IMG/VR virus record: IMGVR_UViG_3300044557_000151
Location: 59,723 to 123,722 of that record
Length of the DNA stretch: 64,000 bases
Reading direction: 5' to 3' (one strand)
DNA from: a virus
Lineage: Duplodnaviria; Heunggongvirae; Uroviricota; Caudoviricetes
Shown here: piece by piece, positions 6,510 through 56,298 of the stretch
Numbering within the stretch: position 1 is the stretch's first letter
How the letters are laid out: every line of letters begins with the position of its first letter
Made by a program: the position numbers and the translations under genes
Notes under the pieces: model-generated
What the model was told of the DNA's origin: nothing
Seen by the model: the letters and a program-made list of their open reading frames with translations, nothing else
The model's database searches: none

Positions 6510-6545
6510 TAAACAAATACTAACCGTATGTTGAGCAGTTCTGTG

Positions 6546-15818: not shown

Positions 15819-15836
15819 ATGAACCGCTTCTATTGT

Positions 15837-15910
15837 GTCTCCGTAGCTCAGATGGATAGAGCATAGATCTTCTAAATCTACGGTCATCGGTTCAAATCCG
15901 ATCGGAGACA
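15837..15910 (+). tRNA. tRNA-Arg(TCT)
   Basis: Manual cloverleaf: acceptor GTCTCCG/CGGAGAC, anticodon loop CTTCTAA, T-arm ATCGG-TTCAAAT-CCGAT. 74 nt. Confidence 0.8.
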
Positions 15911-15994
15911 TTGAGCTGAATTAATTATTCACCTGGTTTGACAACCCTCCAATTTAACTCAAACGTGTGCAGGACTGATCAACCTGTTACATAT

Positions 15995-16065
15995 GCGGAT
16001 ATAGTTCAATGGTAGAATTCTAGTTTTCCAAACTAGCGACGCGAGGCCGGTACTCGTTATCCGCT
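15995..16065 (+). tRNA. tRNA-Trp(CCA)-like with atypical T-loop
   Basis: Acceptor GCGGATA/TATCCGC. Anticodon stem CTAGT/ACTAG with loop TTCCAAA. The T-loop GCCGGTA lacks the conserved TTC. May be a pseudo-tRNA. Confidence 0.4.
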
Positions 16066-16096
16066 TTATATATTTATAAGAAGAGGAGGTTAAAGT

Positions 16097-16780
16097 ATGG
16101 AGATTTGGAAGCCGATGGTTGGATATGAGGGCCTTTACGAAGTGTCTAATGACGGACATGCGCGTTCTGTATCAAGAGAAATTGTGGATAGCGTTGGACG
16201 CAGACGCACCCTAAAAGGCAAGGCAGTCTCGTTCACTATAAATCCCAGAGGATATCTTACCTTTCACGCCACGAAAAACGGTAATAGAAGAACAGCATTC
16301 ATTCATGTTGAAGTGGCGAAGGCGTTTATAGAAAAACCTATTTCTGACGAGCGTTTAGATGTGAATCACAAGGACCATAATAAATTGAATTGCTCAATTG
16401 AGAATCTTGAGTGGTTGACACACGGAGATAATGTGAGAGATCTCAGCATATACCGGGCAAGGACATCAAACACATTAACGAGATTTACAAGGGTCAATGA
16501 TAAGATTGTCAAGCTACCAGATAAGACTTGCGTAGATTGTGGAAAAACCGTTGAGTTCACATCCACTCGTTGTCCTTCATGTGCGGCAAGCGCGTCAATG
16601 ACTTTCACAAACAACGTCGGAGTTATCCCGAAAAATATGCTAGTTTCCGTCCTTCGTGAGAATAATGGGAACTTTGTTAAGGCTGCTGCTGAGTTCGGAA
16701 TTACAGATAACTCCTTGAGAAAGTGGTGTAAGAAATATAATTTGCCATTTCACTCATCGGACTATAAGAAAGCATCATAA
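16097..16780 (+). CDS. HNH homing endonuclease (NUMOD4 + HNH + C-terminal HTH)
   Basis: GYEGLYEVSNDG (NUMOD4 motif), VNHKDHNKLNCSIENLEW (HNH motif) and a C-terminal helix-turn-helix. RBS AAGAGGAGG. Confidence 0.75.
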   Translation: MEIWKPMVGYEGLYEVSNDGHARSVSREIVDSVGRRRTLKGKAVSFTINPRGYLTFHATKNGNRRTAFIHVEVAKAFIEKPISDERLDVNHKDHNKLNCSIENLEWLTHGDNVRDLSIYRARTSNTLTRFTRVNDKIVKLPDKTCVDCGKTVEFTSTRCPSCAASASMTFTNNVGVIPKNMLVSVLRENNGNFVKAAAEFGITDNSLRKWCKKYNLPFHSSDYKKAS

Positions 16781-16798
16781 TGAATTGCATTCGCTTTT

Positions 16799-16882
16799 GC
16801 CGAAGTGGTGGAACTGGAAGACGCGCAGGATTTAGGCTCCTGTGTTGGGAACAACGTGTGGGTTCGAATCCCACCTTCGGCA
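16799..16882 (+). tRNA. tRNA-Leu(TAG)
   Basis: Class II tRNA with long variable arm. Acceptor GCCGAAG/CTTCGGC, anticodon stem CAGGA/TCCTG with loop TTTAGGC, T-arm GTGGG-TTCGAAT-CCCAC. Confidence 0.75.
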
Positions 16883-17120
16883 TCGCCCCTCACTTCACGG
16901 TGGTGAGAGGCGTGAATCAATACTAGTCATGCGGTGTTGGTTCCTCCTTATATATGATATTCGTGCGACCGTCCTGAACGAAGGATTTAAGTCTTATTGC
17001 TTGAATCGGGTTTGAATCCCGACAGCCGCATTCCAGCAAACGTGTATGGCCGCGTGGCGGCGACGAGCGCTGGAATTTAGGTGTGGCACCCTTAACCACA
17101 CCACTCGTTATACTGAAGTG

Positions 17121-17344
17121 GGCAAGAAGACATGTTCTTTAAAGGACGTGATGAATTGCACGTATCTGCGTCAGCAGGTACAACAGCCTTGGTAGCGAAA
17201 ACCAAACTACCAACCTGAACTCAACGTTAAGGCGCGGAACGCGCCGTGGTCAATAACCGTAACCTCTGCATTGTTAGTTTAATGCTAATGGTGTAAGTCA
17301 GCGGTGTTCCCAGAAGCTCGGTCATTTATGACCGAGTAGTTCAC
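17121..17344 (+). mobile_element. ORF-less miniature IS200/IS605 derivative (left end + right end/omega-RNA scaffold)
   Basis: 17121..17160 is nearly identical to the left end of the full IS at 54477. 17245..17344 is nearly identical to the right end at 56190..56287 and ends in the same GAGTAGTTCAC. No ORF between the ends. Confidence 0.6.
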
Positions 17345-17348
17345 GAGT

Positions 17349-17421
17349 GCAACTGTAGCTCAGCGGTGGAGCGGCTGCTCAGAAGAGTAGAGTGTCGCTG
17401 GTTCGATTCCAGCCAGTTGTA
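17349..17421 (+). other. degenerate tRNA-like element (pseudo-tRNA, Phe-like loop CAGAAGA)
   Basis: Good acceptor stem, D-arm and T-arm (GCTGG-TTCGATT-CCAGC) are present. The anticodon stem cannot pair. Begins 4 nt after the mini-IS right end. Confidence 0.35.
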
Positions 17422-17574
17422 GATCCGTGGACTATGTCTAAAATACCTATGTTCTCCTGGTGTCGGTTTGAGGAGACTAACTTTTGGCGGGATGTTCGCA
17501 CATAAGATTGCGAACTTTGTTTCGGATAGTAAAACCGTTAGTCGTGATTGCGAAGTACAAGCTTTCGCGCATAT

Positions 17575-17648
17575 GCTTTCTTAGCTCAGTTGGTTAGAGC
17601 ACCTGACTGTTAATCAGGGTGTCACAGGTTCGAGTCCTGTAGAAAGCG
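17575..17648 (+). tRNA. tRNA-Asn(GTT)
   Basis: Acceptor GCTTTCT/AGAAAGC. Anticodon stem CCTGA/TCAGG with loop CTGTTAA. T-arm ACAGG-TTCGAGT-CCTGT. Confidence 0.85.
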
Positions 17649-17933
17649 TATCTGGATAAATTAAGTTTACGACCAAAAAGCATCCAGAGAAACGCTAACG
17701 TATTGCAGCTGGACTTTAGAGCGATACGAGAGGGCAATCAGCTGTCGGACGGCAGGAAGTTGTCGTAGGTGGATTTGCAACACTTATAGAAAAAGGCTGG
17801 CATGTTCTTGCGCACGAACAAAGCTGGTTAAGATTAAAGTGTGGCGCAGTAGTCGGATAGGTGATTAGTAGTCTGGTGGTCGCAGATGAAAGATCTTACC
17901 GGACTAGGTAGTTCGACTCTACCATCCACCATT

Positions 17934-18006
17934 GGTTGTGTGGTGTTAATGGCTAACACGCCTGATTGTCTATCAGGAGCTTAGGGTTCAATTCCCTACA
18001 CGACCG
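17934..18006 (+). tRNA. tRNA-Asp(GTC)
   Basis: Acceptor GGTTGTG/CACGACC. Anticodon stem CCTGA/TCAGG with loop TTGTCTA. T-arm TAGGG-TTCAATT-CCCTA. Confidence 0.8.
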
Positions 18007-18476
18007 TCAAGCCGAAAGGTTTGAGTTCTTTGCTGTTAATATAACTACCTATCGGATTGGCTAATGACCGCCGATATTTCGGGGATGTAACGGTCTCGAC
18101 AGGATATGCTTAACTGACAAAGCATGTAGAGTGATGACTTAATCATCAACTTGCTAAATGCAAAACAAAACGATTTAGTTGCGGCCTAAGTTTAACTTAG
18201 TATAGCAACACTTACCCCAACGTATGATACCAGATACAAGACGTTGGCTAAACAGGCTGGTGTAGGATGACACTTACTTATTTTCATAAGCTTATCCGAA
18301 ATCTATTGAAAATATGCTCGTCTACTCCGATTGCCCATTTGCGGAAGACGCTAAGACTAATAAGTGAGCTAAGCATGTAGAATTGTCAGATAGAAGCATG
18401 TGTTGGAAACGGGTTCAACTCCCGTCATCTCCATATAGTATGTCGTTACACAATAACATACTAGATATAGTGCAAC

Positions 18477-18564
18477 GGAAAGTTACTCAAGTGGCTGAAG
18501 AGGCGCCCCTGCTAAGGGTGTAGGTCGAGAAATCGGCGCATGGGTTCAAACCCCATACTTTCCA
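18477..18564 (+). tRNA. tRNA-Ser(GCT)
   Basis: Class II tRNA. Acceptor GGAAAGT/ACTTTCC, anticodon loop CTGCTAA, long variable arm, T-arm ATGGG-TTCAAAC-CCCAT. Confidence 0.8.
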
Positions 18565-26579: not shown

Positions 26580-27731
26580 ATGATAAATATTGTTTTAAAA
26601 GGCATTAAACTAAGAATATACCCTAGCAAAGAGCAACAGCTAAGTATAAAGCTTAACTTTGGATATAACCGATTTGTTTGGAATCAGATGCTGGGTATGT
26701 TACAAGAAAGATATGCTAATAACCCTAAGCTATCTTTTCCTAGCGCCTTTACTTTAAATAACTTGTTACCAACAATGAAGATAGAATATTCTTGGCTTAA
26801 CGATGCTGAAAGTCGTAGCTTACAAATAACCTGTAAAAACTTAGTTGATGCTTACAAGAAGTTCTTTAAGACCCATAAGGGGTTTCCTAAGTTTAAATCA
26901 AAGAAGTATCCTAAGCAAAGCTACCAAACAAATTCTACAATAAAGCTAAAGGCCAACGAAGTTAAGTTTCCGAAATTAGGCTATATGAAGTTTAAAGGTA
27001 GTAGCAAAAAACTAAATGAGATTACTAAGATTAAGCTAGGAACTATTAAACTTACACCTACTGGTAAATACTATCTTGTACTGATTGCAGAGTGTGAAAA
27101 CCAAGCACTCCCTAAATCAGGAAATCAAGTAGGTATTGATATGGGGTTAGCTGATTTGATGATTACTAGTGACGGTGTAAAGTATCCTACTTTAAGATTT
27201 GACAAGATACTAGCTAAGAAAAAACGTTACTGGGAAAAGCGTTTAGCTCGTAGACGACTTCAAGCTCAAAAAGAGATTGCTTGGGATAAGCATAATAAGG
27301 TATTAAATCCTAGGGAACTTTCCAACTTTAAAAACTATCAGAAAGCAAAGCTAATGGTTGCTAAGTATTCAGAAAAAATAGCTAACCAGCGTAAAAACTA
27401 CCTTCATATGCTTTCAAAACAGCTTGTATCACAATATGATGTGATTAAGATAGAAGATTTGAAAACCAAGAATCTTCTTAAGAATCATAAGTTATCTAGA
27501 GCAATAGCTAATGCAAGTTGGAAAGAACTTAGAAGACAACTAGAGTACAAGTGCTTATGGTATGGGAAACAGTTAGTCACTGTGAACCCTAGAAAAACCT
27601 CACAAATATGTTCTAGTTGTGGCTATGATGACGGTAAGCATACCTTAGATATTAGAGAGTGGACATGTCCCAAGTGTGGTGTTCACCACGACAGGGACAT
27701 TAACGCGGCTATCAATATCTTAAATGCTTAA
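26580..27731 (+). CDS. tnpB: TnpB RNA-guided endonuclease
   Basis: N-terminal KLRIYPSKEQ...FGYNRFVWNQ. RuvC-I GIDMG and RuvC-II IEDLKTK. C-terminal CSSCG...CPKCG zinc finger followed by RuvC-III DRDINAAINIL. Confidence 0.9.
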   Translation: MINIVLKGIKLRIYPSKEQQLSIKLNFGYNRFVWNQMLGMLQERYANNPKLSFPSAFTLNNLLPTMKIEYSWLNDAESRSLQITCKNLVDAYKKFFKTHKGFPKFKSKKYPKQSYQTNSTIKLKANEVKFPKLGYMKFKGSSKKLNEITKIKLGTIKLTPTGKYYLVLIAECENQALPKSGNQVGIDMGLADLMITSDGVKYPTLRFDKILAKKKRYWEKRLARRRLQAQKEIAWDKHNKVLNPRELSNFKNYQKAKLMVAKYSEKIANQRKNYLHMLSKQLVSQYDVIKIEDLKTKNLLKNHKLSRAIANASWKELRRQLEYKCLWYGKQLVTVNPRKTSQICSSCGYDDGKHTLDIREWTCPKCGVHHDRDINAAINILNA

Positions 27732-28634: not shown

Positions 28635-28941
28635 CGCGACTCTATTAGAAAAAACGATTAGCGGAATTGAATCTGATTATCGCGAAGGGATTAAAGAGTT
28701 GATGATCATCTTAAGCGATGCTGCACGAGTGCACGCGACTCGGGAGACGATTATCTTTGCAGAGGAATCGGTATCTGACTTTCCACATGCGATTGACTTC
28801 CTGAAAAGTCGGTGTGCAGAACAATATCTAGGATATTACGGATACAGGTTCTATCAAGAAAACGATTGGGTAAAGAAGCACTTCTGGAACATTGCACAGC
28901 CAATCCATGTTGGGTGCACCATTAGTTGGCCGGTTGAGTAG
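28621..28941 (+). CDS. hypothetical protein
   Basis: Frame of ORF 28612. ATG at 28621. Confidence 0.4.
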   Translation, partial: TMETSATLLEKTISGIESDYREGIKELMIILSDAARVHATRETIIFAEESVSDFPHAIDFLKSRCAEQYLGYYGYRFYQENDWVKKHFWNIAQPIHVGCTISWPVE

Positions 28942-28973
28942 TTTATAATATTGAGATTTTAGGAGGCGCCACG

Positions 28974-29282
28974 GTGAGTACATCAAGTATGCCAAGCACA
29001 CAAACTGGGATTATGGAATTAGCTGATGCGTATTTGCGCGAACGCTATCGTTTAAAGAGTCTGCACAAAAAGCCAAGTGATTTGAACATGTTCCAGTGGA
29101 CGCGCAAATGCCTATGCGTTACTCAAAAACAAATGGCGGACATATTGAATGTCTCTGTGGCCTCTCTCAAGGCTTATGAGTATGGGAGCCGAAATCCAGG
29201 GGAAGACGCATGGAAACGTCTCTCGGACGTCACCCACATGTCAGTTGCGGATTTATTAGAACTGGAAAACAAGAATCGGTAA
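28974..29282 (+). CDS. XRE-family helix-turn-helix protein
   Basis: VTQKQMADILNVSVASLKAYEYGSRNP is a canonical HTH_XRE segment. Lies 30 bp upstream of the second tnpB. Confidence 0.6.
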   Translation: MSTSSMPSTQTGIMELADAYLRERYRLKSLHKKPSDLNMFQWTRKCLCVTQKQMADILNVSVASLKAYEYGSRNPGEDAWKRLSDVTHMSVADLLELENKNR

Positions 29283-29311
29283 AAGTTTGATTTTGTAAAG
29301 GAGGTGAGGCC

Positions 29312-30448
29312 GTGGATACCTATCAAGCATACAAAGTCCGTATCTATCCCACTCAATTACAAGCTGATATGATTATGCAATTTATCGGAAATAGTCGATT
29401 CGTGTATAACCAAATGCTTGCCATGCAGGCTGATCGTTACAAGAACGGCGGAAGGTACGTTGGATACATGGCAATGTCCAACCTAGTCAAACCACTCAAA
29501 CAAGAGTACGCATTCCTCAAGCTGTCACCATCTCAATCGCTACAACAGGCGTGTGCGGATTTGAACGCCGCTTTCCAGAACTTCTTTGCTAAGCGCGCAG
29601 ACTATCCACGGTTCCACTCCCGAAAAGGTGCGAAGCAATCTATGCGGGTCATGCAGGCTTGTTCCATCATCGCTTCGGGAGTCAAGCTGCCAAAGCTCGG
29701 TATCATGCGTTTCCGTTATGGATATAGTCTCGACCCGTCACTTAAAATTCGGCAAGTGACCGTCTCGTACACCTCATCTCACAAGTTTTACGCCAGCATC
29801 TTAGTTAAATGCGAAAAACAAGCATTGTCTAAAACTGGTGAACAAGTGGGATTGGATATGGGCGTGGCTGACTTAGCTATCCAGAGCAATGGCAAGAAAA
29901 TTCCAACTCAGAAGCATGACGAGCTGGAACACTCTCTTCACATTTGGCAACGTAAGTTGGCTCGCCGTAGGGAGTTAGCCAAGGCGGAAATCGCTAAATC
30001 CAAGCACTATGACCACACTGAATTGACGCTTGATGACTTCTCCAATTACAACAAGGCGAAAATAATGGTTGCTAAGTTGCATGAGAAGATTGCTAACAGG
30101 CGGAAGGATTACCTACACAAGACGACAACCAAATTGGTGCGGGAATATGACCTTATCGCTATGGAAGATTTGAGGACCAAGAATATGGTCAAGAATCACC
30201 ATTTGGCGAAGTCAATTACCAATCAAGGCTGGAACATGTTTAAAACCATGCTTCAGTACAAGTGCGAGTGGTATGGGAAGACAATAGTGGTGGTAAACCC
30301 GCGGAATACCAGTCGCGTATGTTCTGATTGTGGTGTGGATAGCGGCAAGAAACCACTAGATGTGCGGGAATGGACGTGTCCAGGATGTGGTACATGGCAT
30401 GATCGTGATGTGAATGCAGCACAAAACATTTTGAAATTAGCAGTGTAA
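29312..30448 (+). CDS. tnpB: TnpB RNA-guided endonuclease
   Basis: KVRIYPTQLQ...GNSRFVYNQ. RuvC-I GLDMG, RuvC-II MEDLRTK. Zinc finger CSDCG...CPGCG. RuvC-III DRDVNAAQNIL. Confidence 0.9.
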   Translation: MDTYQAYKVRIYPTQLQADMIMQFIGNSRFVYNQMLAMQADRYKNGGRYVGYMAMSNLVKPLKQEYAFLKLSPSQSLQQACADLNAAFQNFFAKRADYPRFHSRKGAKQSMRVMQACSIIASGVKLPKLGIMRFRYGYSLDPSLKIRQVTVSYTSSHKFYASILVKCEKQALSKTGEQVGLDMGVADLAIQSNGKKIPTQKHDELEHSLHIWQRKLARRRELAKAEIAKSKHYDHTELTLDDFSNYNKAKIMVAKLHEKIANRRKDYLHKTTTKLVREYDLIAMEDLRTKNMVKNHHLAKSITNQGWNMFKTMLQYKCEWYGKTIVVVNPRNTSRVCSDCGVDSGKKPLDVREWTCPGCGTWHDRDVNAAQNILKLAV

Positions 30449-30568
30449 CTGATAAACAAGGGCAGGGACTGTCCGTGGTAATAGAGTCGAACCTCTTGAG
30501 GTGCTCATGTGTAACACACAAAGTTCGATGCTCCCAGAAGCCTGTCATTTTAATGACGGGTGGTTCAC
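30449..30568 (+). ncRNA. putative omega-RNA scaffold / IS right end of the second tnpB element
   Basis: Hairpin-rich segment ending in GGTGGTTCAC. Architecture parallels the other right ends (CCCAGAAGC + hairpin + GTTCAC). Confidence 0.45.
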
Positions 30569-30616
30569 TTCCGCTACGTTGGGTATGACGTCAAAGATCA
30601 TTATAACGCTTTGGGC

Positions 30617-30808
30617 GAAGTAGACGGTTACGTCATCTCATGGAATAACGAAAAGGGACGGTAGATAATGAAATTTGAACCATATCAACATGTACAACGT
30701 ATGGGCGTTGACGAAGTAGACGGTTACGTCATCTCATGGAATAACGAAAAGGGACGGTAGATAATGAAATTTGAACCATATCAACATGTACAACGTATGG
30801 GCGTTGAC
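30617..30808 (+). repeat. perfect 96-bp tandem duplication spanning RBS and start of the RNA ligase gene
   Basis: 30617..30712 equals 30713..30808 exactly. A 12-bp junction GAAGTAGACGGT recurs at 30809. Copy 1 creates a decoy 30-codon ORF (30668..30760). Confidence 0.9.
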
Positions 30809-31696
30809 GAAGTAGACGGTATCCTGGATGGTAATGTTGTCATTCAACCGAAGATTGATGGAACAAACGCATCAATCTGGTTAGACCAAAATGGAACCTT
30901 GGGATTTGGAAGTCGTCGGCGAAAGCTGACTTTAGAAAAGGACAACGCGGGGTTCATGACCTTCTTCACCTCTGAAATGGCTCAAGGCGACGCCGCCAAA
31001 TTACAAGAGTATCTCGAAGATAACCCAGATTACACCATTTACGGCGAATGGTTAGTCCAACATGTCGTTCATTACAAAGATAACGTTTACCATCAACTGT
31101 TCATTTTCGACGTCTACGACAATGCGAATGAACGATATCTCAACATCGAAGAATATCAAGATGACCTTCAAGAGTTGGGCATGTCGTATGTGGTTGTGAT
31201 CCCGGCGATTTACAAAGGTAAAGCAACAAACGAGATGATTGTAAAGCTCGCTAAGGATAACCACTATCTTCTGGAAAAAGACCAGGTCGGTGAAGGCGTT
31301 GTAGTTAAACGATATGACTTCGTGAATCGATATGGGCGTACCACTTGGGGTAAATACGTGCTTGCAGATTTCAAGAAGCGCAAACATGATGGACGTAATT
31401 ACTCTCAGGATGTTGATGGTATTGGGAACAGTTATGCAGAACCTATTGCTAAATTCATTACACCAGCGTTTGTCGAAAAAGAGTTCATTAAGTTTAAAGA
31501 GCGATTGGATCACCCGTTTAGTGGAAAAGATATTCCGGCATTGCTAGGGACCGTGTATCACGAATTTGTTTCAGAAGAGACGTGGCATTTCTTGAAAGAA
31601 CTTGGGAAGAGTCCGGTTGTCAACTTTGGAACTGTACAGCGCGAATCGTACAAACAAATTAAGCGGTGTTTGCCTGTCTTATTCGGCCAAGCATAG
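30764..31696 (+). CDS. ATP-dependent RNA ligase-like nucleotidyltransferase
   Basis: Motif I KIDGTNA (ligase/capping-enzyme lysine adenylyltransferase). 310 aa. RtcB lies nearby. Confidence 0.5.
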   Translation: MKFEPYQHVQRMGVDEVDGILDGNVVIQPKIDGTNASIWLDQNGTLGFGSRRRKLTLEKDNAGFMTFFTSEMAQGDAAKLQEYLEDNPDYTIYGEWLVQHVVHYKDNVYHQLFIFDVYDNANERYLNIEEYQDDLQELGMSYVVVIPAIYKGKATNEMIVKLAKDNHYLLEKDQVGEGVVVKRYDFVNRYGRTTWGKYVLADFKKRKHDGRNYSQDVDGIGNSYAEPIAKFITPAFVEKEFIKFKERLDHPFSGKDIPALLGTVYHEFVSEETWHFLKELGKSPVVNFGTVQRESYKQIKRCLPVLFGQA

Positions 31697-31703
31697 GAGA
31701 TTT

Positions 31704-32066
31704 ATGAAAATTAAATTAATTGATGTAACAACCGAAGAGGAATACATGGAACTTGGCACATGCGAACTCTGCTTCAGCTATGGCGAAGAAGAGATCCCAA
31801 CCTTTCATTTCGAGAAAGACGACGGAACCAAGTTTGATGTTGAGGCTTTCTATATTGAATGGGGTTGCCCGTATTCTCTCTATGTTGACAACGCAATTAC
31901 CTTTGCTGGGTATCTTGCAAGTTTAGACTTCGACCCTGACTTCGACAAACAAATCAATGCTAAAGGTTATAACGAGTGGGACGATTACGCGTGGCTTAGT
32001 AATTTGCTCCGCGATTATGCCGAGTCCACATTCTGCAAAGATCCAGAATACGATCCATCGTGGTAA
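31704..32066 (+). CDS. hypothetical protein
   Basis: ATG 31704 follows AGGAGA (ORF track frame began at 31602). Confidence 0.45.
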   Translation: MKIKLIDVTTEEEYMELGTCELCFSYGEEEIPTFHFEKDDGTKFDVEAFYIEWGCPYSLYVDNAITFAGYLASLDFDPDFDKQINAKGYNEWDDYAWLSNLLRDYAESTFCKDPEYDPSW

Positions 32067-32089
32067 AAGTACGATTTTAGGAGGTTAAC

Positions 32090-32395
32090 ATGATTACACC
32101 AAGAGGGTTAATGGACAAGGTTAAGGTTCGAAAATTAGAACTTGATAACCAATTTGAGCAAACGTATCTGGATCAAAAAGATGCAATGGAATTATTGCTA
32201 GAAGAACTGTTAGTTGATGCCATTGCTCGTAATGGTAGAGGTGTATGGATTGATGAATACGGTAATAGTTCATTGTATAACTTCCTTGTAAAATACTCCG
32301 ATCGCATTGATGGATATTCGTTTGAAATCGACGACGTAACATGTGATATGTATGTAACGCCAATCTTGGACGACGATTCGTGGAATGAATATTAA
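32090..32395 (+). CDS. hypothetical protein
   Basis: ORF track 101 aa. RBS AGGAGG upstream. Confidence 0.45.
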   Translation: MITPRGLMDKVKVRKLELDNQFEQTYLDQKDAMELLLEELLVDAIARNGRGVWIDEYGNSSLYNFLVKYSDRIDGYSFEIDDVTCDMYVTPILDDDSWNEY

Positions 32396-32412
32396 CTGAA
32401 AGCTGGTACGTC

Positions 32413-33603
32413 TTGGAAATCAAAGGTAAATACGGCGTTGCAAAAGTAATGACCGAGAATATTGAGCAAACCGCTCAAGAACAGTTGAAAACGTTACTGG
32501 ATCAGCCATACATGAAGGGCAACGATGTTCGAATCATGCCGGATGTTCACGCTGGTAAAGGCGCAACAATTGGCACTAGCATCAAGTTAAACAACGACTT
32601 CATTTGCCCAAATACGGTTTCGGTCGACCTGGGCTGTGGAATGCACGTATTCAAGCTTGACATCGATCATGTAGACTTTGAAAAGTTGGATCAGTTAATC
32701 AATAACGAAGTACCATCTGGTTTCAACGTTTACGAAAATCCGATTCGTAAATTCAGACAAATCAATTATACTCGCATTACTCATCTGAAAAACTACGATC
32801 ACATCTTGAACAGTATTGGAACTCTTGGTGGTGGGAACCATTTCATTGAAATCGATCAGGATACCGATGGTGTTTACTACCTGGTAATTCATTCAGGCTC
32901 ACGCAACTTGGGCGTTCAAGTTGCCAACTATTATCAACGCTTAGCAATTTCGAATCAGTCAAAGAATGTTGAGTTACGCGACGCTGTGATTGCAGCATGT
33001 AAAGAGGTTGGACAAGAGCGTCAGATTGAGGGTTTGTTGAATACGTTGAAACAAACGAATCCAATCATTCCAGACGAGTTGGCTCCTGTCAGCGGCCAAG
33101 ATGCTGAAGACTACTTATACGACGTATCGATTGCACAAGAGTTTGCAGCGTTGAATCGTTTGACGATGGCCGAAACAATTATCTACGGCATGAATTGGCA
33201 AGTTGATTCAGACTTTGATTCAATTCACAACTACATTGATATCGATAATCGAATTATTCGCAAAGGTGCTACCGATGCCTCGTTGGGGAAACAATTGGTT
33301 ATCCCATTGAATATGCGTGATGGCTCGATTATTGCAACTGGCATGGGTAACTCTGACTGGAACTACTCAGCTCCACATGGTGCAGGTCGCGTAATGTCTC
33401 GCAAGAAGGCGTTTGAAACAGTTGCCATGAACGACTTTACCAAATCGATGGAAGGTATCTACTCGACTTCTGTTGTCAAAGAAACGATTGATGAATCACC
33501 GTTCGCATACAAGCCTGCACAAGAGATTATTGATGCAATCAGTGAGAAGACTGTCCACATCGATAAGGTGATTAAACCGGTTTACAACTACAAGGCACAT
33601 TAA
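32413..33603 (+). CDS. rtcB: RtcB-family RNA 3'-phosphate ligase
   Basis: MPDVHAGKGATIG, GGGNHFIEID and APHGAGR motifs. Start uncertain: TTG at 32413 or ATG at 32449. Confidence 0.85.
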   Translation: MEIKGKYGVAKVMTENIEQTAQEQLKTLLDQPYMKGNDVRIMPDVHAGKGATIGTSIKLNNDFICPNTVSVDLGCGMHVFKLDIDHVDFEKLDQLINNEVPSGFNVYENPIRKFRQINYTRITHLKNYDHILNSIGTLGGGNHFIEIDQDTDGVYYLVIHSGSRNLGVQVANYYQRLAISNQSKNVELRDAVIAACKEVGQERQIEGLLNTLKQTNPIIPDELAPVSGQDAEDYLYDVSIAQEFAALNRLTMAETIIYGMNWQVDSDFDSIHNYIDIDNRIIRKGATDASLGKQLVIPLNMRDGSIIATGMGNSDWNYSAPHGAGRVMSRKKAFETVAMNDFTKSMEGIYSTSVVKETIDESPFAYKPAQEIIDAISEKTVHIDKVIKPVYNYKAH

Positions 33604-33604
33604 G

Positions 33605-33931
33605 ATGATGAATATTATTTGTGTAGGAGTTGTAGTTGTCATGCTGGGTTTATCCTGTGCCAAGATTGTTGATATGAAGTGTCACCACCAATGTCCATAT
33701 CACCATAGACAATCAAACGGAAAGTGTGAACCATTCCCAAGCGATTATGACTACGGTGAAGGCTACATGTCGCTGTATCAGATCATCGAAACTGGAAGTG
33801 GTTATGTACTAGACGTTCATAGCCAATCGTATCTAGGAGACGATCATATCGATATTGACGAAAACCAAGTTCCGATTACTCACTGTCCACTATGTGGCGG
33901 ATATCTATGGAGGTCACGAAGTAAGTGTTAG
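33605..33931 (+). CDS. Cys-rich small protein
   Basis: CHHQCPYHH...CPLCGG. N-terminal hydrophobic segment. Confidence 0.4.
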   Translation: MMNIICVGVVVVMLGLSCAKIVDMKCHHQCPYHHRQSNGKCEPFPSDYDYGEGYMSLYQIIETGSGYVLDVHSQSYLGDDHIDIDENQVPITHCPLCGGYLWRSRSKC

Positions 33932-34248
33932 AAACAAAACGAGAGATTTTCGACTTCTTAGTCGATCATACTATCCAGATTGCTCAACAAGTCGAAGTAG
34001 GCGAAACCAGCAAGCGTTCTGAAGAGTTTCGGCGCGATATGAACGCACTGTGGGACAGCGCTGACGATCAACGAAAAGGGTGCCCACATTGCTTAAAAGG
34101 TATGCCGTTAATCGACGATGCTTGGAATTATATCGGCATTGAACGTGAGACTAAGCGGATGTTCTTCAACAGCAATAAGGCTGTTGGACATGACGAAGTG
34201 GGTATTGTTCATATCAAGTATTGTCCTGAATGCGGGGCGAAGCTGTGA
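33925..34248 (+). CDS. small zinc-ribbon protein (paralog family)
   Basis: CPHCLKG ... YCPECGAKL. Confidence 0.45.
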   Translation: MLETKREIFDFLVDHTIQIAQQVEVGETSKRSEEFRRDMNALWDSADDQRKGCPHCLKGMPLIDDAWNYIGIERETKRMFFNSNKAVGHDEVGIVHIKYCPECGAKL

Positions 34249-34436
34249 GCGAAACAAAAGAAGACGTGTTCGAAGCCGCAATCGATTTAGTCAAAACTTG
34301 GTGGCCGTATCCCGGTAATGCCATTGACCAGGCCGACGATCTGATTCGCCGATGGAAGAATGCCCCCTACCATAAGCCATTGATTTCATATTGTTACGAC
34401 CAAGACGGGGAGCCGACTCAGGTGGAGATTTCATGA
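34230..34436 (+). CDS. small protein of the ETK-DVF paralog family
   Basis: N-terminus SETKEDVFEAAIDLV matches the N-termini of the 34433, 38070 and 39490 proteins. Confidence 0.4.
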   Translation: MRGEAVSETKEDVFEAAIDLVKTWWPYPGNAIDQADDLIRRWKNAPYHKPLISYCYDQDGEPTQVEIS

Positions 34437-34789
34437 AAGAGACCAAAGAAGATGTATTCCAAAAGCTACTAGATGAATACTGTAAAGACGAGGCGCGAAT
34501 CGACACCTTAGTGTATGAACCAGATCAGCACATTCCAGATCTCGATCGCGAGTATTTTATGAAGCGATATGAGGAGGCAAAACAGGGCGATTCCAAATGC
34601 CCATACTGCCATAGTGACGGGCACACTCGTTGGGATAATAGATCGGTGTGGGGGTCAAAAGAGATTCTTGACTGTTATGGAGAATCCAACAATCTGTTTA
34701 TCAACCTCAGTAGCAAAACTCTGTTGGAAGGTTACGCGATGAGTGAATTTGAGATTTACTACTGTCCGATGTGCGGACGCAAATTATAA
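34433..34789 (+). CDS. small zinc-ribbon protein (paralog family)
   Basis: MKETKEDVFQKLL... CPYCHSDGH ... YYCPMCGRKL. ATGA overlap with the upstream gene. Confidence 0.45.
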   Translation: MKETKEDVFQKLLDEYCKDEARIDTLVYEPDQHIPDLDREYFMKRYEEAKQGDSKCPYCHSDGHTRWDNRSVWGSKEILDCYGESNNLFINLSSKTLLEGYAMSEFEIYYCPMCGRKL

Positions 34790-35032
34790 AACTGAACTTT
34801 TAGAAGGTAGAAAAACTTGAGAAAGCTGTTTTGGATTCCGGCATTACCATTCATTGTCATCGGAGTTCCACTATATACAATTGGGACGCTCGTTATCGCT
34901 TGTGCCTACTGGATTAGTTCGTGGGCAGTCAAGGGTTGGGAACACGAATGGGTGTTTAAGGACTTGTTCGGGCTATGGAACTGGTAGCAACAAAAACAAA
35001 TAAAACTAAAATTTTAGAAAGTAGGAAAGGCA

Positions 35033-35287
35033 ATGGCAGACAAAATTACAATTTATGATCGAGACAATTTTTTTGATCTGATTGAAAACGCGATTCAAGA
35101 TGACATCACTGAGGCTAGTGATTATGAAAACTATCACACTGCGATTGTTGAATATGAAGGACAGACATACGAAGTCGGCTACTCCACAAATATCACGTGG
35201 GGCGTCAACGACGAAAGTGGCTGGGTGCTGACCCCTGTATATCCTTACGAAGTGACGACTACGCGATATTCTTACACACCGCGATAA
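35033..35287 (+). CDS. hypothetical protein
   Basis: ORF track 84 aa. RBS AGGAAAGG upstream. Confidence 0.4.
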   Translation: MADKITIYDRDNFFDLIENAIQDDITEASDYENYHTAIVEYEGQTYEVGYSTNITWGVNDESGWVLTPVYPYEVTTTRYSYTPR

Positions 35288-41041: not shown

Positions 41042-41620
41042 ATGAGCTTTTATATTATTGAAGACGAAGACGGCAACACCATGGATTATAACGGATATTT
41101 TAATTTCCCAATTAGCCAAACGGAGTTGTTCGATGAACCAAATGAGCCAGCTAAATTTGCAGAGGAATTAGGCGGCCACGTAGTCGAGCTAGTCGAGGAG
41201 CAAAAAGTCAAGTTACCGCAAGATGTATGCGAAGAGCTCGACGACTGGATGGCTGATAACCAAGATAGGTTGGTTGGCCGCATTGGTGAATTGATCTTCG
41301 ACATGATGACCCACGAACCTAAATTAACTAATGTATTTTGTTTTGTTGGTGATAGTGAAGAAAACTATTTCAAGATTATTGATGCTTACCGGTATGGTTG
41401 GGAAGCAGAACCGGAAGCTAAGTGGTATGTAAAAACGCCGGAAGCTTGGGAAAGCGAAGACGGTGATTTTGGCTGGCTATATAAGTCGATCTACGGAGGG
41501 ATAGACACCACTAGCCACTTCGATGGTGAAGAAAACGAGCAGTTCACCCGTGCTGAGATCAAGCAGTATCACCTAGATAGCGACATCTTTACACTGGTGC
41601 CAGTGGAGGAAGAAAAATGA
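41042..41620 (+). CDS. acidic hypothetical protein
   Basis: ORF track 192 aa. RBS AGAGGAGG upstream. Confidence 0.45.
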   Translation: MSFYIIEDEDGNTMDYNGYFNFPISQTELFDEPNEPAKFAEELGGHVVELVEEQKVKLPQDVCEELDDWMADNQDRLVGRIGELIFDMMTHEPKLTNVFCFVGDSEENYFKIIDAYRYGWEAEPEAKWYVKTPEAWESEDGDFGWLYKSIYGGIDTTSHFDGEENEQFTRAEIKQYHLDSDIFTLVPVEEEK

Positions 41621-41768
41621 ATGATGCCAAACGATTTCAAGTTTGCGACGAAGAAGAAGTAATGGCTGACTTCGCCACCAAGGAAGGAGCCTTTGTATAT
41701 ATCGAGTCTTATGACCGTTTTAATACCATGTACGTTTACGACACCGAAAAGGATGAGGTGATTTTTAA

Positions 41769-42329
41769 ATGAGCTTATGGGCAGTTAAAGATGCAGACGG
41801 CTGGTTCTGGGACTTCACCGATGAGGGTTTTTACGAAGAAAATGATACTCGAACGGCTGGCATTCCGAACCGAGATTATGCTAACCAAATCGCAAAGGAA
41901 CACAATGGGACACTTACTGAGTATGTGCAGAAGTCCGCACCGATCGTGGTGAGCCAAGAGGAAGCGGAGATGCTGGAGCGGGCGAAGAGTGGACATTTAT
42001 GGGCCACCAATGTGATACAAAATTACATCGATATGCACATGGATGGCATGTCAAATGATGAAAAACAACAATTTGAAGACCGCCTCATGCGCGCCTACGT
42101 CATCGGCTACACCGTGGCAAAGGAGACGCTGTACAACGTCAAGGTGCCACATTCAACTGATGGCTATTACTGGCGTGGAATTAGTGGACAGGTACACACA
42201 TACACTGAGCCTGACCAGCATGCTCATGTTTTGAAAACCGAAGCGTATGTTTGGGCACAAGAACAAATTAATGATGCTGGCTTGCAGGGCTGCGAGAAAG
42301 TGGAGGTGACTGACGATGAAAATGATTAA
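41769..42329 (+). CDS. hypothetical protein (paralog A of a two-member family)
   Basis: Shares VSQEEAEMLERAKSG and EDRLMRAYVIGYTVAKE with the 42694 protein. Confidence 0.5.
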   Translation: MSLWAVKDADGWFWDFTDEGFYEENDTRTAGIPNRDYANQIAKEHNGTLTEYVQKSAPIVVSQEEAEMLERAKSGHLWATNVIQNYIDMHMDGMSNDEKQQFEDRLMRAYVIGYTVAKETLYNVKVPHSTDGYYWRGISGQVHTYTEPDQHAHVLKTEAYVWAQEQINDAGLQGCEKVEVTDDEND

Positions 42330-49415: not shown

Positions 49416-49417
49416 TT

Positions 49418-54462: not shown

Positions 54463-54575
54463 TTTTATCATGTGCAGGAAAGAAGACACGTTCTTTAAAG
54501 GACGTGATGAATTGCCTTCTTTTTAGCGCCAAAGGCGCTACACATGGTACGAAATCGTGTGGTATAATAAGCTAT

Positions 54576-55019
54576 ATGAAAGACACTAATAGACTTACGT
54601 ATGGTAGAACTTCTGTCTACAATCTAAATTACCACATCATCTGGGGAACTAAATACCGTAACCGGGTTCTGAAAGGAAATGTTGAGGTTACGCTCAAGCA
54701 AATTATGTATGAAATCGCAGAGCAATATGGTTTTAGCATCGACCACATGGAAATTGGTCAGGATGACCATATTCACTTGCTGGTGAGTGCACCGCCAAAA
54801 CTATCAGTTACCAATATTGTGCGATGGCTAAAAGGCATTTCAGCGCGCCAGCTATTCGTCGCGTGTCCGGAGCTACAGCGAAGTTACTGGAAACATGCAG
54901 GACGCCACTTATGGTCGCCCAGTTATTACGTAGAAAGTATTGGCACAACTAATCAGAATGCAGTCGCTAAGTACATTGATGACCAAAGGTTGAAGGAGGT
55001 GAAGATTAATGACAATTAA
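54576..55019 (+). CDS. tnpA: IS200-like Y1 (HUH) transposase TnpA
   Basis: YHIIWGTKYR and HIHLLVSAPP (HuH) motifs plus a downstream Tyr. ATG 54576 (track frame from 54504). Confidence 0.85.
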   Translation: MKDTNRLTYGRTSVYNLNYHIIWGTKYRNRVLKGNVEVTLKQIMYEIAEQYGFSIDHMEIGQDDHIHLLVSAPPKLSVTNIVRWLKGISARQLFVACPELQRSYWKHAGRHLWSPSYYVESIGTTNQNAVAKYIDDQRLKEVKINDN

Positions 55020-56287: not shown

Positions 56288-56298
56288 GAATTCAATAG

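What the first reader, a model, noticed from the sequence alone, without database searches (positions are those of the whole stretch)
30764..33603. RNA repair pair (KxDG RNA-ligase-like enzyme + RtcB) 12 kb downstream of the phage tRNA array
RtcB joins 2',3'-cyclic-phosphate and 5'-OH ends, exactly the products of anticodon nucleases such as PrrC, RloC, colicin-like enzymes and some VapC/MazF toxins. T4 counters PrrC with Rnl1 plus Pnk. Here the same logic appears in a different enzymatic form (RtcB needs no kinase/phosphatase), backed by a second ligase and the phage's own tRNAs. This is a plausible counter-defence module against tRNA-targeting abortive-infection systems.
Basis: partly seen in the sequence, partly recalled or inferred. 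Interest (0 to 1): 0.6.

Follow-up and report, generated by a model that had tools for sequence, protein, structure and literature searches.

The report
Phage RNA-repair pair: Rnl2-like ligase plus RtcB
A large uncultured Firmicutes-type phage carries two intact RNA-joining enzymes side by side that between them can reseal both chemical kinds of RNA break, most likely to undo host cutting of tRNA; this arrangement is real but is already known from other phages.

Summary
30764..31696 encodes a 310-aa PF09414 ATP-dependent ligase with KIDG at K30. 32413..33603 encodes a 396-aa RtcB. Both keep every catalytic residue I could map.

The four genes (ligase, a 120-aa ORF, a 101-aa ORF, RtcB) are tightly packed on one strand.

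Ligase-RtcB adjacency recurs at five separate positions in the ligase tree, including Listeria A511/P100 phages. It is not universal:
- 9 of 80 ligase-centred viral loci have RtcB nearby.
- 0 of 80 RtcB-centred loci have this ligase nearby.
- About 24 loci place the ligase in a T7-like replication module.

The window ligase's own subclade is linked to RNA repair (RtcB, or a Pnkp-like kinase-phosphatase-Rnl1 fusion). The RtcB clade travels with tRNA arrays (27 of 40 loci).

Best reading: a repair pair that needs no kinase or phosphatase and covers both 2',3'>P/5'-OH and 3'-OH/5'-P breaks. The counter-defence role is inferred, not shown. Phage combinations of RtcB, Rnl1 and Rnl2 with tRNAs are already published, so this is a new member of a known kind.

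The parts
30764..31696 (+). ATP-dependent RNA ligase, Rnl2-like (310 aa). Adenylyltransferase domain at about residues 1-210, a low-confidence linker at 211-220, and an all-helical C-terminal domain at 225-310. K30 is the predicted adenylylation lysine.
31704..32066 (+). 120-aa ORF ('orfA') of unknown function. It starts 8 nt after the ligase stop, behind a GGAG Shine-Dalgarno sequence, and is conserved between ligase and RtcB in close relatives.
32084..32408 (+). 325-bp segment carrying a 101-aa ORF ('orfB', 32090..32395). It is present in the window and in L168 but absent from L084. It lies exactly between the AGGAG that serves RtcB in L084 and the RtcB TTG start.
   Evidence: blastn of L084 against the window breaks at 32083/32409. 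Sequences are shown. No Pfam or PHROG hit.
32413..33603 (+). RtcB, the 3'-phosphate or 2',3'-cyclic-phosphate / 5'-OH RNA ligase (396 aa). Metal ligands are D72, C75, H143, H160 and H272. The GMP-accepting histidine is H322, in the motif HGAGR.
   Evidence: PF01139 at 201.5 bits and phrog_1075 at 8e-127. About 50% identical to Listeria A511/P100 RtcB. Alignment to P. horikoshii RtcB maps D95, C98, H203, H234 and H404. All these positions, plus H272 and N273, are invariant across six divergent phage RtcBs.
30616..30807 (.). Perfect 96-bp tandem duplication (30616-30711 = 30712-30807). It spans the end of the upstream gene fragment, the ligase ribosome-binding site and the first 44 nt of the ligase ORF. 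It creates a decoy 30-aa ORF (30668..30760) ahead of the real start.
   Evidence: the repeat finder reports two copies at 100% identity. Sequence shown. The single-copy state is seen in L084.
29312..30563 (+). Solo TnpB (IS200/IS605-type RNA-guided nuclease, 378 aa, 29312..30448) plus a roughly 115-nt omega-RNA-like tail that ends in GTTCAC at about 30563. It forms the immediate upstream border of the module.
   Evidence: NF040570 at 330 bits, plus PF07282, PF12323 and PF01385. The 3' motif is shared with the other two TnpB copies. Homology to the uninterrupted relative L084 resumes at 30564.
15836..18564 (+). tRNA array with a tmRNA; this is context, not part of the operon. Members: Arg-TCT, Gly-TCC (15995-16065), Leu-TAG, an odd tRNA with a 6-nt anticodon loop (17348-17422), Asn-GTT, Asp-GTC, tmRNA (18081-18436) and Ser-GCT.
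   Evidence: ARAGORN, Rfam and folds.

Best explanation
The locus is a small RNA-repair operon of a large phage with a Pol III-alpha replication module. The phage is uncultured and, judged by its nearest relatives, of Firmicutes type.

The operon encodes two catalytically intact RNA ligases with complementary end requirements.

- **RtcB.** It uses GTP and Mn2+, is guanylylated on H322, and directly joins 2',3'-cyclic-phosphate or 3'-phosphate ends to 5'-OH ends. These are the products of metal-independent RNases such as HEPN anticodon nucleases (PrrC, RloC), colicin E5/D-type tRNases and MazF.
- **The 310-aa Rnl2-like enzyme.** It is adenylylated on K30 and seals 3'-OH/5'-phosphate nicks in base-paired RNA. 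These are the products of metal-dependent nucleases.

No kinase or phosphatase is present nearby. Each ligase therefore handles one class of break directly, rather than one backing up the other.

The most likely substrates are tRNAs, and possibly rRNA or the phage's own tRNAs and tmRNA, cut by host defence or toxin nucleases during infection. Resealing them would keep translation running.

**Shown here:** gene presence, family membership, intact active sites, the fold type, operon-like packing, recurrence of the pairing in several lineages, and linkage of the RtcB clade to tRNA arrays.

**Inferred:** the substrates, the end specificities (taken from the characterised families), co-transcription, and the counter-defence purpose.
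For: 1. **Identity and integrity.**
   - RtcB scores 201.5 bits and has every metal-binding and nucleophile residue.
   - The ligase has motifs I, Ia, III, IIIa, IV and V invariant across 40 homologs.
2. **Fold.**
   - No OB domain is present. The C-terminus is all helices, as in Rnl2.
3. **Packing.** Gaps between the four genes are 7, 23 and 17 nt, all on one strand. No convincing internal promoter or terminator was found.
4. **Context of the ligase's own subclade.**
   - The 98% relatives keep ligase-orfA-RtcB.
   - The 48% relative lies 15 nt after a 759-aa kinase + metallophosphoesterase + Rnl1 fusion and near a DUF2828 protein.
   - The 42% relative follows a Metallophos gene.
5. **Recurrence.**
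   - RtcB lies within 3 kb of a family member at five separate tree positions, in both gene orders, with RtcBs only 30-50% identical.
   - Kinase-HD genes follow the ligase at about four more positions.
6. **RtcB and tRNA.** 27 of 40 RtcB-centred loci have tRNA genes within 10 kb, 19 of them with arrays, and one has a tmRNA.
7. **Nearest cultured lineage.** By Pol III alpha this is Bacillus PJN02/FADO/Tsamsa. PJN02 carries a dedicated ATP-dependent DNA ligase next to its PF09414 ligase, so that ligase is not its replicative enzyme.
8. **Literature.** Phage RtcB/Rnl1/Rnl2 combinations with tRNAs are read as answers to RNase effectors (PMC7824862). Many defence systems cleave tRNA, and phage tRNA repair is an acknowledged counter (bioRxiv 10.64898/2026.07.10.737580).
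Against: - There is no experimental evidence for any step. The host and its nucleases are unknown.
- The pairing is not a conserved module of either family. None of the 80 closest RtcB loci has this ligase within 10 kb, and only 9 of 80 ligase loci have RtcB.
- About 24 ligase loci (one T7-like lineage), Cellulophaga phi19:3 and Clostridium phage Amboise place the ligase among replication genes.
- The window gene also follows a replication module, and no separate DNA ligase was found in the 64 kb.
- The region is in flux: a TnpB insertion, a 96-bp duplication at the ligase start, and a 325-bp insertion that separates RtcB from its Shine-Dalgarno sequence. Adjacency could therefore be recent mosaicism.
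- The biological role of T4 Rnl2 itself is still unknown (my own knowledge).
Confidence: 0.6

Rival explanations
1. The 310-aa ligase is a replication or recombination enzyme that seals nicks in DNA or at RNA-DNA junctions for the Pol III-alpha replisome. It merely sits next to RtcB. Only RtcB would be an RNA-repair gene.
For: - In about 24 of 80 viral loci the family lies in a T7-like replication module (DNA polymerase, FEN-like exonuclease, SSB-like protein, primase-helicase, RNR, MazG), roughly where T7 has its DNA ligase.
- Cellulophaga phi19:3 has it beside DnaC- and DnaA-like genes, and its authors called it 'DNA ligase'.
- Clostridium phage Amboise has it between an exonuclease and Pol III alpha.
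- In the window it follows helicase, primase, Pol III alpha and thymidine kinase. No other DNA ligase was found in 64 kb.
Against: - There is no OB domain and no PF01068 hit.
- The fold and the sequence profile are closest to Rnl2, Rnl5 and REL1, not to DNA ligases.
- The window's own subclade is linked to RtcB or Pnkp-like genes, while the replication context is essentially one lineage elsewhere in the tree.
- PJN02, the nearest cultured relative by polymerase, has a separate ATP-dependent DNA ligase beside its PF09414 ligase.
- Amboise also has a polynucleotide kinase 7 kb away.
- The window is only about half of a genome of at least 123 kb, so a DNA ligase may lie outside it, and the host LigA is available.
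Confidence: 0.2
2. The pair does housekeeping RNA processing for the phage, rather than reversing host attack. Examples would be maturing or recycling the phage's own tRNAs and tmRNA, or repairing collateral damage from phage-induced RNA turnover.
For: - The RtcB clade is tightly linked to phage tRNA arrays, and sometimes to a tmRNA, in many phages. The window has both.
- One window tRNA has an aberrant 6-nt anticodon loop.
- RtcB is the tRNA-splicing ligase in archaea and metazoa (established knowledge).
Against: - None of the window tRNAs shows an intron or a split or permuted structure in ARAGORN or Rfam.
- Bacterial tRNA introns are self-splicing group I introns that need no ligase (established knowledge).
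- The same tRNA linkage is equally expected under counter-defence.
- Partner genes in relatives (Pnkp-like, kinase-HD, Ro/TROVE-like) are classic damage-repair components.
Confidence: 0.12
3. Both enzymes repair RNA, but independently. Their adjacency is an accident of mosaic accessory-gene shuffling, not a co-adapted module, and orfA and orfB are unrelated cargo.
For: - 0 of 80 RtcB-centred loci carry the ligase.
- Only near-identical relatives (L084, L168) share the arrangement, while the next clade has a Pnkp-like gene instead.
- orfB is a presence/absence insertion. A TnpB element and a fresh 96-bp duplication flank the ligase.
- orfA has no detectable link to RNA biology.
Against: - Adjacency arose at least five times independently, with different RtcB clades and gene orders. 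That is hard to get by chance given frequencies of 1.4% and 0.6% per genome.
- The genes are packed as in an operon.
Confidence: 0.08

Closest known systems
RtcB plus PF09414 'RNA ligase' region of Listeria Herelleviridae phages A511/P100 (Pecentumvirus)
   Same: - The RtcB is about 50% identical over its full length.
- A ligase of the same Pfam family lies 1.6 kb away on the same strand.
- tRNA genes lie a few kb upstream.
- Both genes are already annotated as 'tRNA splicing ligase' and 'RNA ligase'.
   Different: - The gene order is reversed: RtcB comes first in A511.
- The A511 ligase is only about 25% identical and is the outgroup in the tree.
- A511 adds an HD phosphohydrolase, a phosphoesterase, a GatB/YqeY-like protein and a 506-aa RNA-binding protein. 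None of these has a detectable homolog in the window.
- The intervening small ORFs are unrelated.
T4 Rnl2 (gp24.1), the prototype nick-sealing RNA ligase
   Same: - The architecture is the same: an N-terminal NTase plus a C-terminal helical domain, with no OB fold.
- Motif I KxDGxN, motif III GE, motif IIIa FD and motif IV EG..K are conserved.
   Different: - Sequence identity is only about 15-19%.
- By sequence profile the family is slightly nearer to Naegleria Rnl5: 2.4e-8 against 8e-6.
- T4 does not pair Rnl2 with RtcB.
T4 Pnkp + Rnl1 anti-PrrC tRNA repair (heal-and-seal)
   Same: It follows the same proposed logic: a phage-encoded ligase or ligases restore host-cleaved tRNA so that translation continues.
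   Different: - No polynucleotide kinase/phosphatase and no Rnl1 (PF09511) is present in the window.
- RtcB does direct 3'-P/5'-OH ligation instead of healing followed by sealing.
- The 48%-identical sister ligase (L082) does sit beside a Pnkp-like kinase-phosphatase-Rnl1 fusion.
Bacterial RtcB systems (E. coli RtcBA operon; PrfH-RtcB2 ribosome rescue)
   Same: They have the same catalytic family and active site.
   Different: - The window RtcB scores far below the NCBIfam equivalog cutoffs: NF007153 at 135.6 against 407, and TIGR03073 at 102.3 against 271.8. It belongs to a phage clade (phrog_1075).
- No RtcA, RtcR or PrfH gene is nearby.
Phage RNA-repair gene sets catalogued by Iyer, Anantharaman, Krishnan, Burroughs and Aravind 2021 (PMC7824862, sec. 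3.4.9)
   Same: [quoted passage not shown] It also states that the ligases are probably non-redundant and specialised for RNA cleaved by different RNase effectors. That is exactly the reading reached here.
   Different: - That survey concerns jumbo phages.
- This phage is at least 123 kb, from an unsampled lineage with no megablast match among 50,697 phage records.
- In the part seen here it lacks the RlaP, kinase and phosphatase partners the survey describes.

Membership tests
RtcB (PF01139), 3'-phosphate/5'-OH RNA ligase | Profile match above the curated threshold over the full length | tested here: met
   PF01139 scores 201.5 bits against a cutoff of 27. phrog_1075 scores 8e-127 over residues 1-395.
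RtcB (PF01139), 3'-phosphate/5'-OH RNA ligase | Two-metal site ligands (Pho D95, C98, H203, H234, H329) and the guanylylated histidine (Pho H404) in the HGAGR motif | tested here: met
   D72, C75, H143, H160 and H322 map by direct alignment to 1uc2. H272-N273 and all the others are invariant across six phage RtcBs of 31-92% identity.
RtcB (PF01139), 3'-phosphate/5'-OH RNA ligase | GTP/Mn2+-dependent joining of 2',3'>P or 3'-P ends to 5'-OH RNA ends | not testable with these tools
   This needs a biochemical assay.
E. coli-type RtcB / PrfH-associated RtcB2 equivalogs (NF007153, TIGR03073) | Score above the NCBIfam equivalog cutoff | tested here: not met
   NF007153 scores 135.6 against 407. TIGR03073 scores 102.3 against 271.8. 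The protein is an RtcB but not a member of these subfamilies.
Rnl2-like ATP-dependent RNA ligase (PF09414; T4 Rnl2, REL1, Rnl5 clade) | Profile match above threshold and covalent nucleotidyltransferase motifs I (KxDGxN), Ia, III, IIIa, IV and V | tested here: met
   PF09414 scores 76.7 bits against a cutoff of 27. K30, D32, G33, N35, R51, G94, E95, F115, D116, E177, G178 and K197 are invariant, and K182 is at least 90% conserved, in 40 homologs. Motifs I, III, IIIa and IV align to NgrRnl K170 and the following motifs.
Rnl2-like ATP-dependent RNA ligase (PF09414; T4 Rnl2, REL1, Rnl5 clade) | Adenylyltransferase fold closer to RNA ligases than to DNA ligases or capping enzymes | tested here: met
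   [not shown]
Rnl2-like ATP-dependent RNA ligase (PF09414; T4 Rnl2, REL1, Rnl5 clade) | Rnl2-type architecture: N-terminal NTase plus an all-alpha C-terminal domain homologous to the Rnl2 C-domain | tested here: inconclusive
   [not shown]
Rnl2-like ATP-dependent RNA ligase (PF09414; T4 Rnl2, REL1, Rnl5 clade) | Sealing of 3'-OH/5'-PO4 nicks in duplex RNA, with a requirement for ribose on the 3'-OH side | not testable with these tools
   This needs a biochemical assay with RNA/RNA, RNA/DNA and DNA/DNA nicked duplexes.
ATP-dependent DNA ligase (PF01068 NTase + PF04679 OB) | DNA-ligase NTase profile match and a C-terminal OB-fold domain | tested here: not met
   There is no PF01068 or PF04679 hit at E<=0.01. 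The C-terminal third is all-helical with no beta-barrel. DNA ligases rank below all RNA ligase types. There is no tblastn similarity to the PJN02 ATP-dependent DNA ligase.
T4-type heal-and-seal tRNA repair (Pnkp + Rnl1) | A polynucleotide 5'-kinase/3'-phosphatase and an Rnl1-type (PF09511) ligase encoded by the phage | tested here: not met
   No such domain occurs in any window ORF of 150 aa or more. tblastn with Pnkp-like, kinase-HD, HD, metallophosphoesterase and Rnl1-like queries gave no hit at E<=0.01. Only 64 kb of a genome of at least 123 kb was available.
RtcB-archease pair | An archease (PF01951) cofactor encoded next to RtcB | tested here: not met
   [not shown]
Phage counter-defence against anticodon nucleases | A cognate host RNA-cleaving defence whose effect is reversed by the phage genes | not testable with these tools
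   The host is unknown. No genetic or biochemical data exist.

The most novel reading that the evidence does not exclude
The operon could be a self-sufficient, dual-chemistry RNA-resealing module that needs no kinase or phosphatase. RtcB would reverse cuts by metal-independent tRNases (HEPN/PrrC/RloC, colicin-like, MazF). The Rnl2-like ligase would directly reverse cuts by metal-dependent tRNases (TOPRIM, HNH or PIN effectors such as those of PARIS, Septu or OLD). The conserved 120-aa protein of unmatched fold between them, with its invariant G-x-C-x-x-C hairpin, would act as a new cofactor or substrate adaptor. If so, one short cassette would give broad-spectrum protection against both classes of tRNA-targeting immunity.
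Probability: 0.2. Interest if true: 0.55.

Novelty: new member of a known kind. Interest (0 to 1): 0.3.

Why it matters
tRNA cleavage is now recognised as one of the commonest outputs of bacterial anti-phage immunity (PrrC, RloC, PARIS, Septu, OLD, Cas13). The only experimentally proven repair counter-measure is still T4 Pnkp + Rnl1.

A compact cassette that pairs the two direct-sealing chemistries without end-healing enzymes would be a convenient test case for two questions:
- Do phage RtcB enzymes really neutralise HEPN-type nucleases?
- Do Rnl2-type ligases, whose biological role has been unclear since T4 Rnl2 was described, neutralise metal-dependent tRNases?

As a genome annotation, however, the finding is ordinary. 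The same two genes are annotated in A511/P100-like phages, and the concept is published.

Tried and rejected
1. **Megablast of 29000-35000 against 50,697 phage records.** No match. The phage has no close cultured relative.
2. **Sequence search of the ligase against PDB chains.** Only a marginal hit to Pab1020 at E 0.016. It needed a profile and a structure model.
3. **orfA (31704..32066).**
   - The word-indexed homolog search found only the identical protein.
   - The exhaustive search found 107 small relatives.
   - Ten longer fusion relatives have no Pfam domain.
   - Function stays unknown, and the archease hypothesis is rejected.
4. **orfA and orfB conservation.** Neither has a homolog in any of the 160 ligase- or RtcB-centred viral loci, so neither is a conserved partner outside the immediate relatives.
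5. **Expected the RtcB-centred sample to show the ligase nearby.** It was 0 of 80, and the HMM was verified on positive controls. This rejects the idea of a universally conserved two-ligase module.
6. **Searched for end-healing enzymes or a DNA ligase in the window.** I used Pfam and PHROGs on all ORFs of 150 aa or more, and tblastn with 11 accessory proteins from relatives. None was found. Sensitivity is limited for small or very divergent proteins.
7. **Promoter and terminator scan of 28900-35100.** Fewer sites than in shuffled sequence, so it is uninformative.
8. **Considered that the 388-aa 'RNA ligase' of Bacillus phage PJN02 might be an RtcB.** It is not. It matches the Rnl1 domain of the L082 fusion.
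9. **The 5' part of the gene interrupted by TnpB.** It could not be located in the window. Only a weak paralog-like match at 28678-28725 was found. The exact history of that junction is unresolved.

Full report

Yes. On the + strand, 30764..31696 is an ATG-initiated 310-aa ORF and 32413..33603 is a TTG-initiated 396-aa ORF.

The first matches Pfam PF09414 'RNA ligase' at 76.7 bits against a gathering score of 27, and phrog_548 'RNA ligase' at 5e-41. The second matches PF01139 RtcB at 201.5 bits and phrog_1075 'tRNA splicing ligase' at 8e-127.

ARAGORN and Rfam place seven tRNAs and a tmRNA at 15836..18564, so '12 kb downstream of the tRNA array' is correct arithmetic. The interval, however, is filled with other genes: a primase, a PD-(D/E)XK nuclease, a Pol III alpha polymerase, thymidine kinase, two HNH endonucleases and two TnpB genes. 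The array and the pair share a genome, not a locus.

**2. Anatomy of the locus**

Four genes are packed head to tail.

| Gene | Coordinates | Notes |
|---|---|---|
| Ligase | 30764..31696 | stop at 31696 |
| orfA (120 aa) | 31704..32066 | GGAG Shine-Dalgarno sequence upstream |
| orfB (101 aa) | 32090..32395 | AGGAGG upstream |
| RtcB | 32413..33603 | TTG start |

A run of small ORFs follows. A consensus promoter and terminator scan found nothing convincing inside the block. Co-transcription is inferred from the packing only.

Immediately upstream lies a solo TnpB (29312..30448) with an omega-RNA-like tail.

**3. RtcB is intact**

Direct alignment to P. horikoshii RtcB (PDB 1uc2) maps its metal ligands and nucleophile as follows: D95 to D72, C98 to C75, H203 to H143, H234 to H160, and the guanylylated H404 to H322, in the motif HGAGR.

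I aligned six phage RtcBs spanning 31-92% identity. These residues, together with D44, H46, N142, H272-N273 (the remaining metal histidine) and R326, are invariant.

The protein is about 50% identical to the RtcB of Listeria phages A511 and P100. It falls far below the NCBIfam equivalog thresholds for the E. coli-type and PrfH-associated RtcBs. It is therefore a phage-clade RtcB.

The TTG start is supported by a 92%-identical (protein) relative from a public read-set assembly (L084). There AGGAG sits 7 nt upstream of the same TTG.

**4. What kind of ligase is the 310-aa protein?**

Sequence alone barely reaches the PDB (Pab1020/Rnl3 at E 0.016).

A word-indexed search of 5.8 billion proteins returned 771 relatives of about 300 aa, nearly all from metagenomes. 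In an alignment of 40 of them, the covalent nucleotidyltransferase motifs are invariant: K30, D32, G33 and N35 (motif I), R51 (Ia), G94 and E95 (III), F115 and D116 (IIIa), E177, G178 and K182 (IV), and K197 (V).

AlphaFold2 on that alignment gave a confident model with pLDDT 89.4 and pTM 0.81. It has an alpha/beta domain to about residue 210, a disordered linker, and a purely helical domain at 225-310.

Fold and profile comparisons agree:
- **Foldseek against the PDB** ranks full-length T4 Rnl2 first (3e-12), then the archaeal Rnl3 enzymes and Naegleria Rnl5. DNA ligases appear only at about 1e-5.
- **A family profile against PDB sequences** finds NgrRnl (2.4e-8), T4 Rnl2 (8e-6) and Pab1020 (6.5e-5), but no canonical DNA ligase.

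There is no OB fold.

The enzyme is thus an Rnl2-like RNA ligase, with an N-terminal NTase and a helical C-domain. One caveat: homology of the C-domain to that of Rnl2 was not demonstrated.

**5. Is the pairing more than an accident?**

I tested it from both sides.

*From the ligase.* Of 80 IMG/VR loci carrying a relative (35-41% identity), nine have RtcB within 3 kb.
- Seven belong to one lineage, with RtcB 1.1 kb upstream.
- Two others (L027, L081) have a very different RtcB (30% identity) immediately downstream.
- With the window clade and the A511 group, adjacency occurs at five separate positions of a neighbour-joining tree of the ligases, in both gene orders.
- Seven further loci have a P-loop kinase-HD fusion immediately after the ligase, at about four tree positions.

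The largest single context is different. About 24 loci, essentially one tight lineage, place the ligase in a T7-like replication module with DNA polymerase, a FEN-like exonuclease, primase-helicase, RNR and MazG.

Cultured phages show both patterns:
- Cellulophaga phi19:3 and Clostridium phage Amboise have the ligase among replication genes. Amboise also has a polynucleotide kinase 7 kb away.
- Bacillus phage PJN02 has it next to a dedicated ATP-dependent DNA ligase and an Rnl1-like ligase.

*From RtcB.* Among the 80 closest RtcB relatives in IMG/VR (47-54% identity), none has a ligase of this family within 10 kb. The HMM used detects all positive controls, including the distant A511 ligase at 5e-25.

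What does travel with this RtcB clade is the terminase and portal genes just downstream (46 and 44 loci; my reading of the cluster representatives) and tRNA genes. 27 of 40 scanned loci have at least one tRNA within 10 kb, 19 have two or more, and one also has a tmRNA.

*The window's own subclade.*
- The 98%-identical relatives keep ligase-orfA-RtcB (L084, L168).
- The next branch (48% identity, L082/L083) lies 15 nt downstream of a 759-aa AAA_33 kinase + Metallophos + Rnl1 fusion, that is, a bacterial-Pnkp-like heal-and-seal enzyme. A DUF2828/DUF7788 protein is also in the locus.
- A 42% relative follows a Metallophos gene.
- Two other close relatives are on contigs too short to inform.

*Conclusion.* The family as a whole is used in more than one context. 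The branch that includes the window gene is consistently associated with RNA repair. RtcB adjacency has arisen repeatedly, but it is not a fixed module.

**6. Mechanism proposed**

From the established properties of the two families, the enzymes have different end requirements.
- RtcB joins 3'-P or 2',3'>P ends to 5'-OH ends via RtcB-His-GMP and RNA(3')pp(5')G intermediates.
- Rnl2-type enzymes seal 3'-OH/5'-PO4 nicks in base-paired RNA via Lys-AMP and AppRNA intermediates.

The two are therefore complementary.

I found no polynucleotide kinase, no 2H, HD, HAD or metallophosphoesterase, and no Rnl1 in the window. I used Pfam and PHROGs on every ORF of 150 aa or more, and tblastn with eleven accessory proteins taken from relatives.

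The best reading has two parts. RtcB reverses cuts by metal-independent RNases. The Rnl2-like ligase reverses single nicks by metal-dependent nucleases. tRNA is the likeliest substrate, given the RtcB-tRNA linkage.

The counter-defence purpose is an inference. It is consistent with the literature:
- Iyer et al. [quoted passage not shown]
- Recent work lists Cas12, Cas13, PARIS, retron-Septu, OLD, PrrC and RloC as tRNA-cleaving defences. It mentions phage tRNA repair as a selective pressure on them.

**7. Rivals**

- **Replication role for the ligase.** This is the strongest rival. The evidence for it is the replication context in several lineages, the window gene's position after the Pol III-alpha module, and the absence of another DNA ligase in the 64 kb. 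The evidence against it is the fold, the missing OB domain, the subclade context, and PJN02, the closest cultured lineage by polymerase (37% identity), which carries a separate DNA ligase beside its PF09414 ligase. The window is only about half of the genome, since the identical orfA is on a 123.7-kb contig. A DNA ligase may simply lie outside it.
- **Housekeeping processing of phage tRNAs or tmRNA.** This is possible but nothing specific supports it. No tRNA here is split or intron-bearing.
- **Pure mosaic accident.** The repeated independent origin of the adjacency argues against it.

**8. The genes in between**

orfB sits on a 325-bp segment that is present in the window and L168 but absent from L084. 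The segment is inserted exactly between the Shine-Dalgarno sequence and the start codon that serve RtcB in L084.

**9. Comparison with what is known, and novelty**

The closest known case is the annotated RtcB + RNA ligase region of A511/P100-type Listeria phages. The concept is in the comparative-genomics literature.

The differences here are modest:
- an unsampled phage lineage;
- the reversed gene order;
- no visible end-healing partners;
- a conserved small protein of unmatched fold inside the operon.

This is a new member of a known kind. Interest is modest, with some value as a minimal test case for the still-unknown biological role of Rnl2-type ligases.

Noticed in passing
window 30616-30807: A perfect 96-bp tandem duplication, bounded by a 13-nt microhomology (CGAAGTAGACGGT, with a third copy at 30808). 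It duplicates the last 52 nt of the upstream gene fragment, the ribosome-binding site and the first 44 nt of the ligase ORF. This creates a decoy 30-aa ORF at 30668..30760. The relative L084 has a single copy. It may be a very recent microhomology-mediated duplication or an assembly artefact.
   Followed up: partly
window 32084-32408 (orfB 32090..32395): A 325-bp presence/absence segment carrying a 101-aa ORF with its own strong use of the AGGAGG. It is inserted precisely between the Shine-Dalgarno sequence and the TTG start of RtcB as seen in L084. It leaves RtcB in the window with only a weak upstream SD-like sequence. It is present in L168 and absent in L084.
   Followed up: partly
window 26580-27731, 29312-30563, 54504-56290: Three different IS200/IS605-type TnpB genes, 47-56% identical to each other. 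Only the third has a TnpA (54504..55019). All three share a 3' omega-RNA-like motif (CCAGAAGC, hairpin, GTTCAC). For the second copy the motif ends at about 30563, and homology to the uninterrupted relative L084 resumes right there. The flanking TTCCGCTACGTTGGGTATGA would then be the guide, and L084 would be the empty site, preceded by TTTAC. The 5' part of the interrupted gene was not found.
   Followed up: partly
window 18081-18436: A phage-encoded tmRNA (Rfam RF00023, 112.9 bits) with a short tag peptide, AKQNDLVAA, embedded in the tRNA array. One RtcB-centred viral locus (L129) also has a tmRNA 3 kb upstream of its RtcB.
   Followed up: no
window 17348-17422 and 15995-16065: One tRNA-like gene has a 6-nt anticodon loop; ARAGORN reports a 2-base 'anticodon', and Rfam scores it at 46.5 bits as a tRNA. 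A second tRNA, with a UCC anticodon by my reading (Gly), is found by Rfam but missed by ARAGORN. The aberrant-loop tRNA could be non-decoding, a frameshift suppressor, or resistant to anticodon nucleases.
   Followed up: partly
loci L020, L026, L032-L049, L063-L067, L073, L076 (IMG/VR): In one T7-like lineage of environmental phages, the PF09414 'RNA ligase' family gene sits between HNH, FEN-like exonuclease, SSB-like protein and DNA polymerase on one side, and MazG and RNR on the other. That is about where T7 has its DNA ligase. The family may have been recruited for a replication role there. Whether those phages have another DNA ligase was not checked.
   Followed up: partly
loci L009, L013, L017, L028 versus L012, L016, L018: Otherwise near-identical RtcB genes differ by a roughly 26-aa insertion just before the HNY metal-binding motif. 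It is variable within one phage lineage.
   Followed up: no
locus L082 14828-17449: A DNA methylase gene interrupted by an intein (PF00145 - PF14890 - PF00145), 4 kb downstream of the Pnkp-like + Rnl2-like ligase pair.
   Followed up: no
window 33605-34789: Directly downstream of RtcB are three small paralogous ORFs (33605..33931, 33925..34248, 34391..34789), each ending in a CPxCG zinc-ribbon-like motif. Two of them match phrog_1494 (unknown function).
   Followed up: no
window 5448-7884, 41042-43230, 48831-49900, 60567-61331: Other gene content of note: two integrase-like genes in tandem, three DUF1642 paralogs, two nucleoside 2-deoxyribosyltransferase paralogs, and a PnuC-like NMN transporter. 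Pol III alpha is about 37% identical to that of Clostridioides phage-plasmid pCD1602_4 and large Bacillus siphoviruses, which suggests a Firmicutes host.
   Followed up: no
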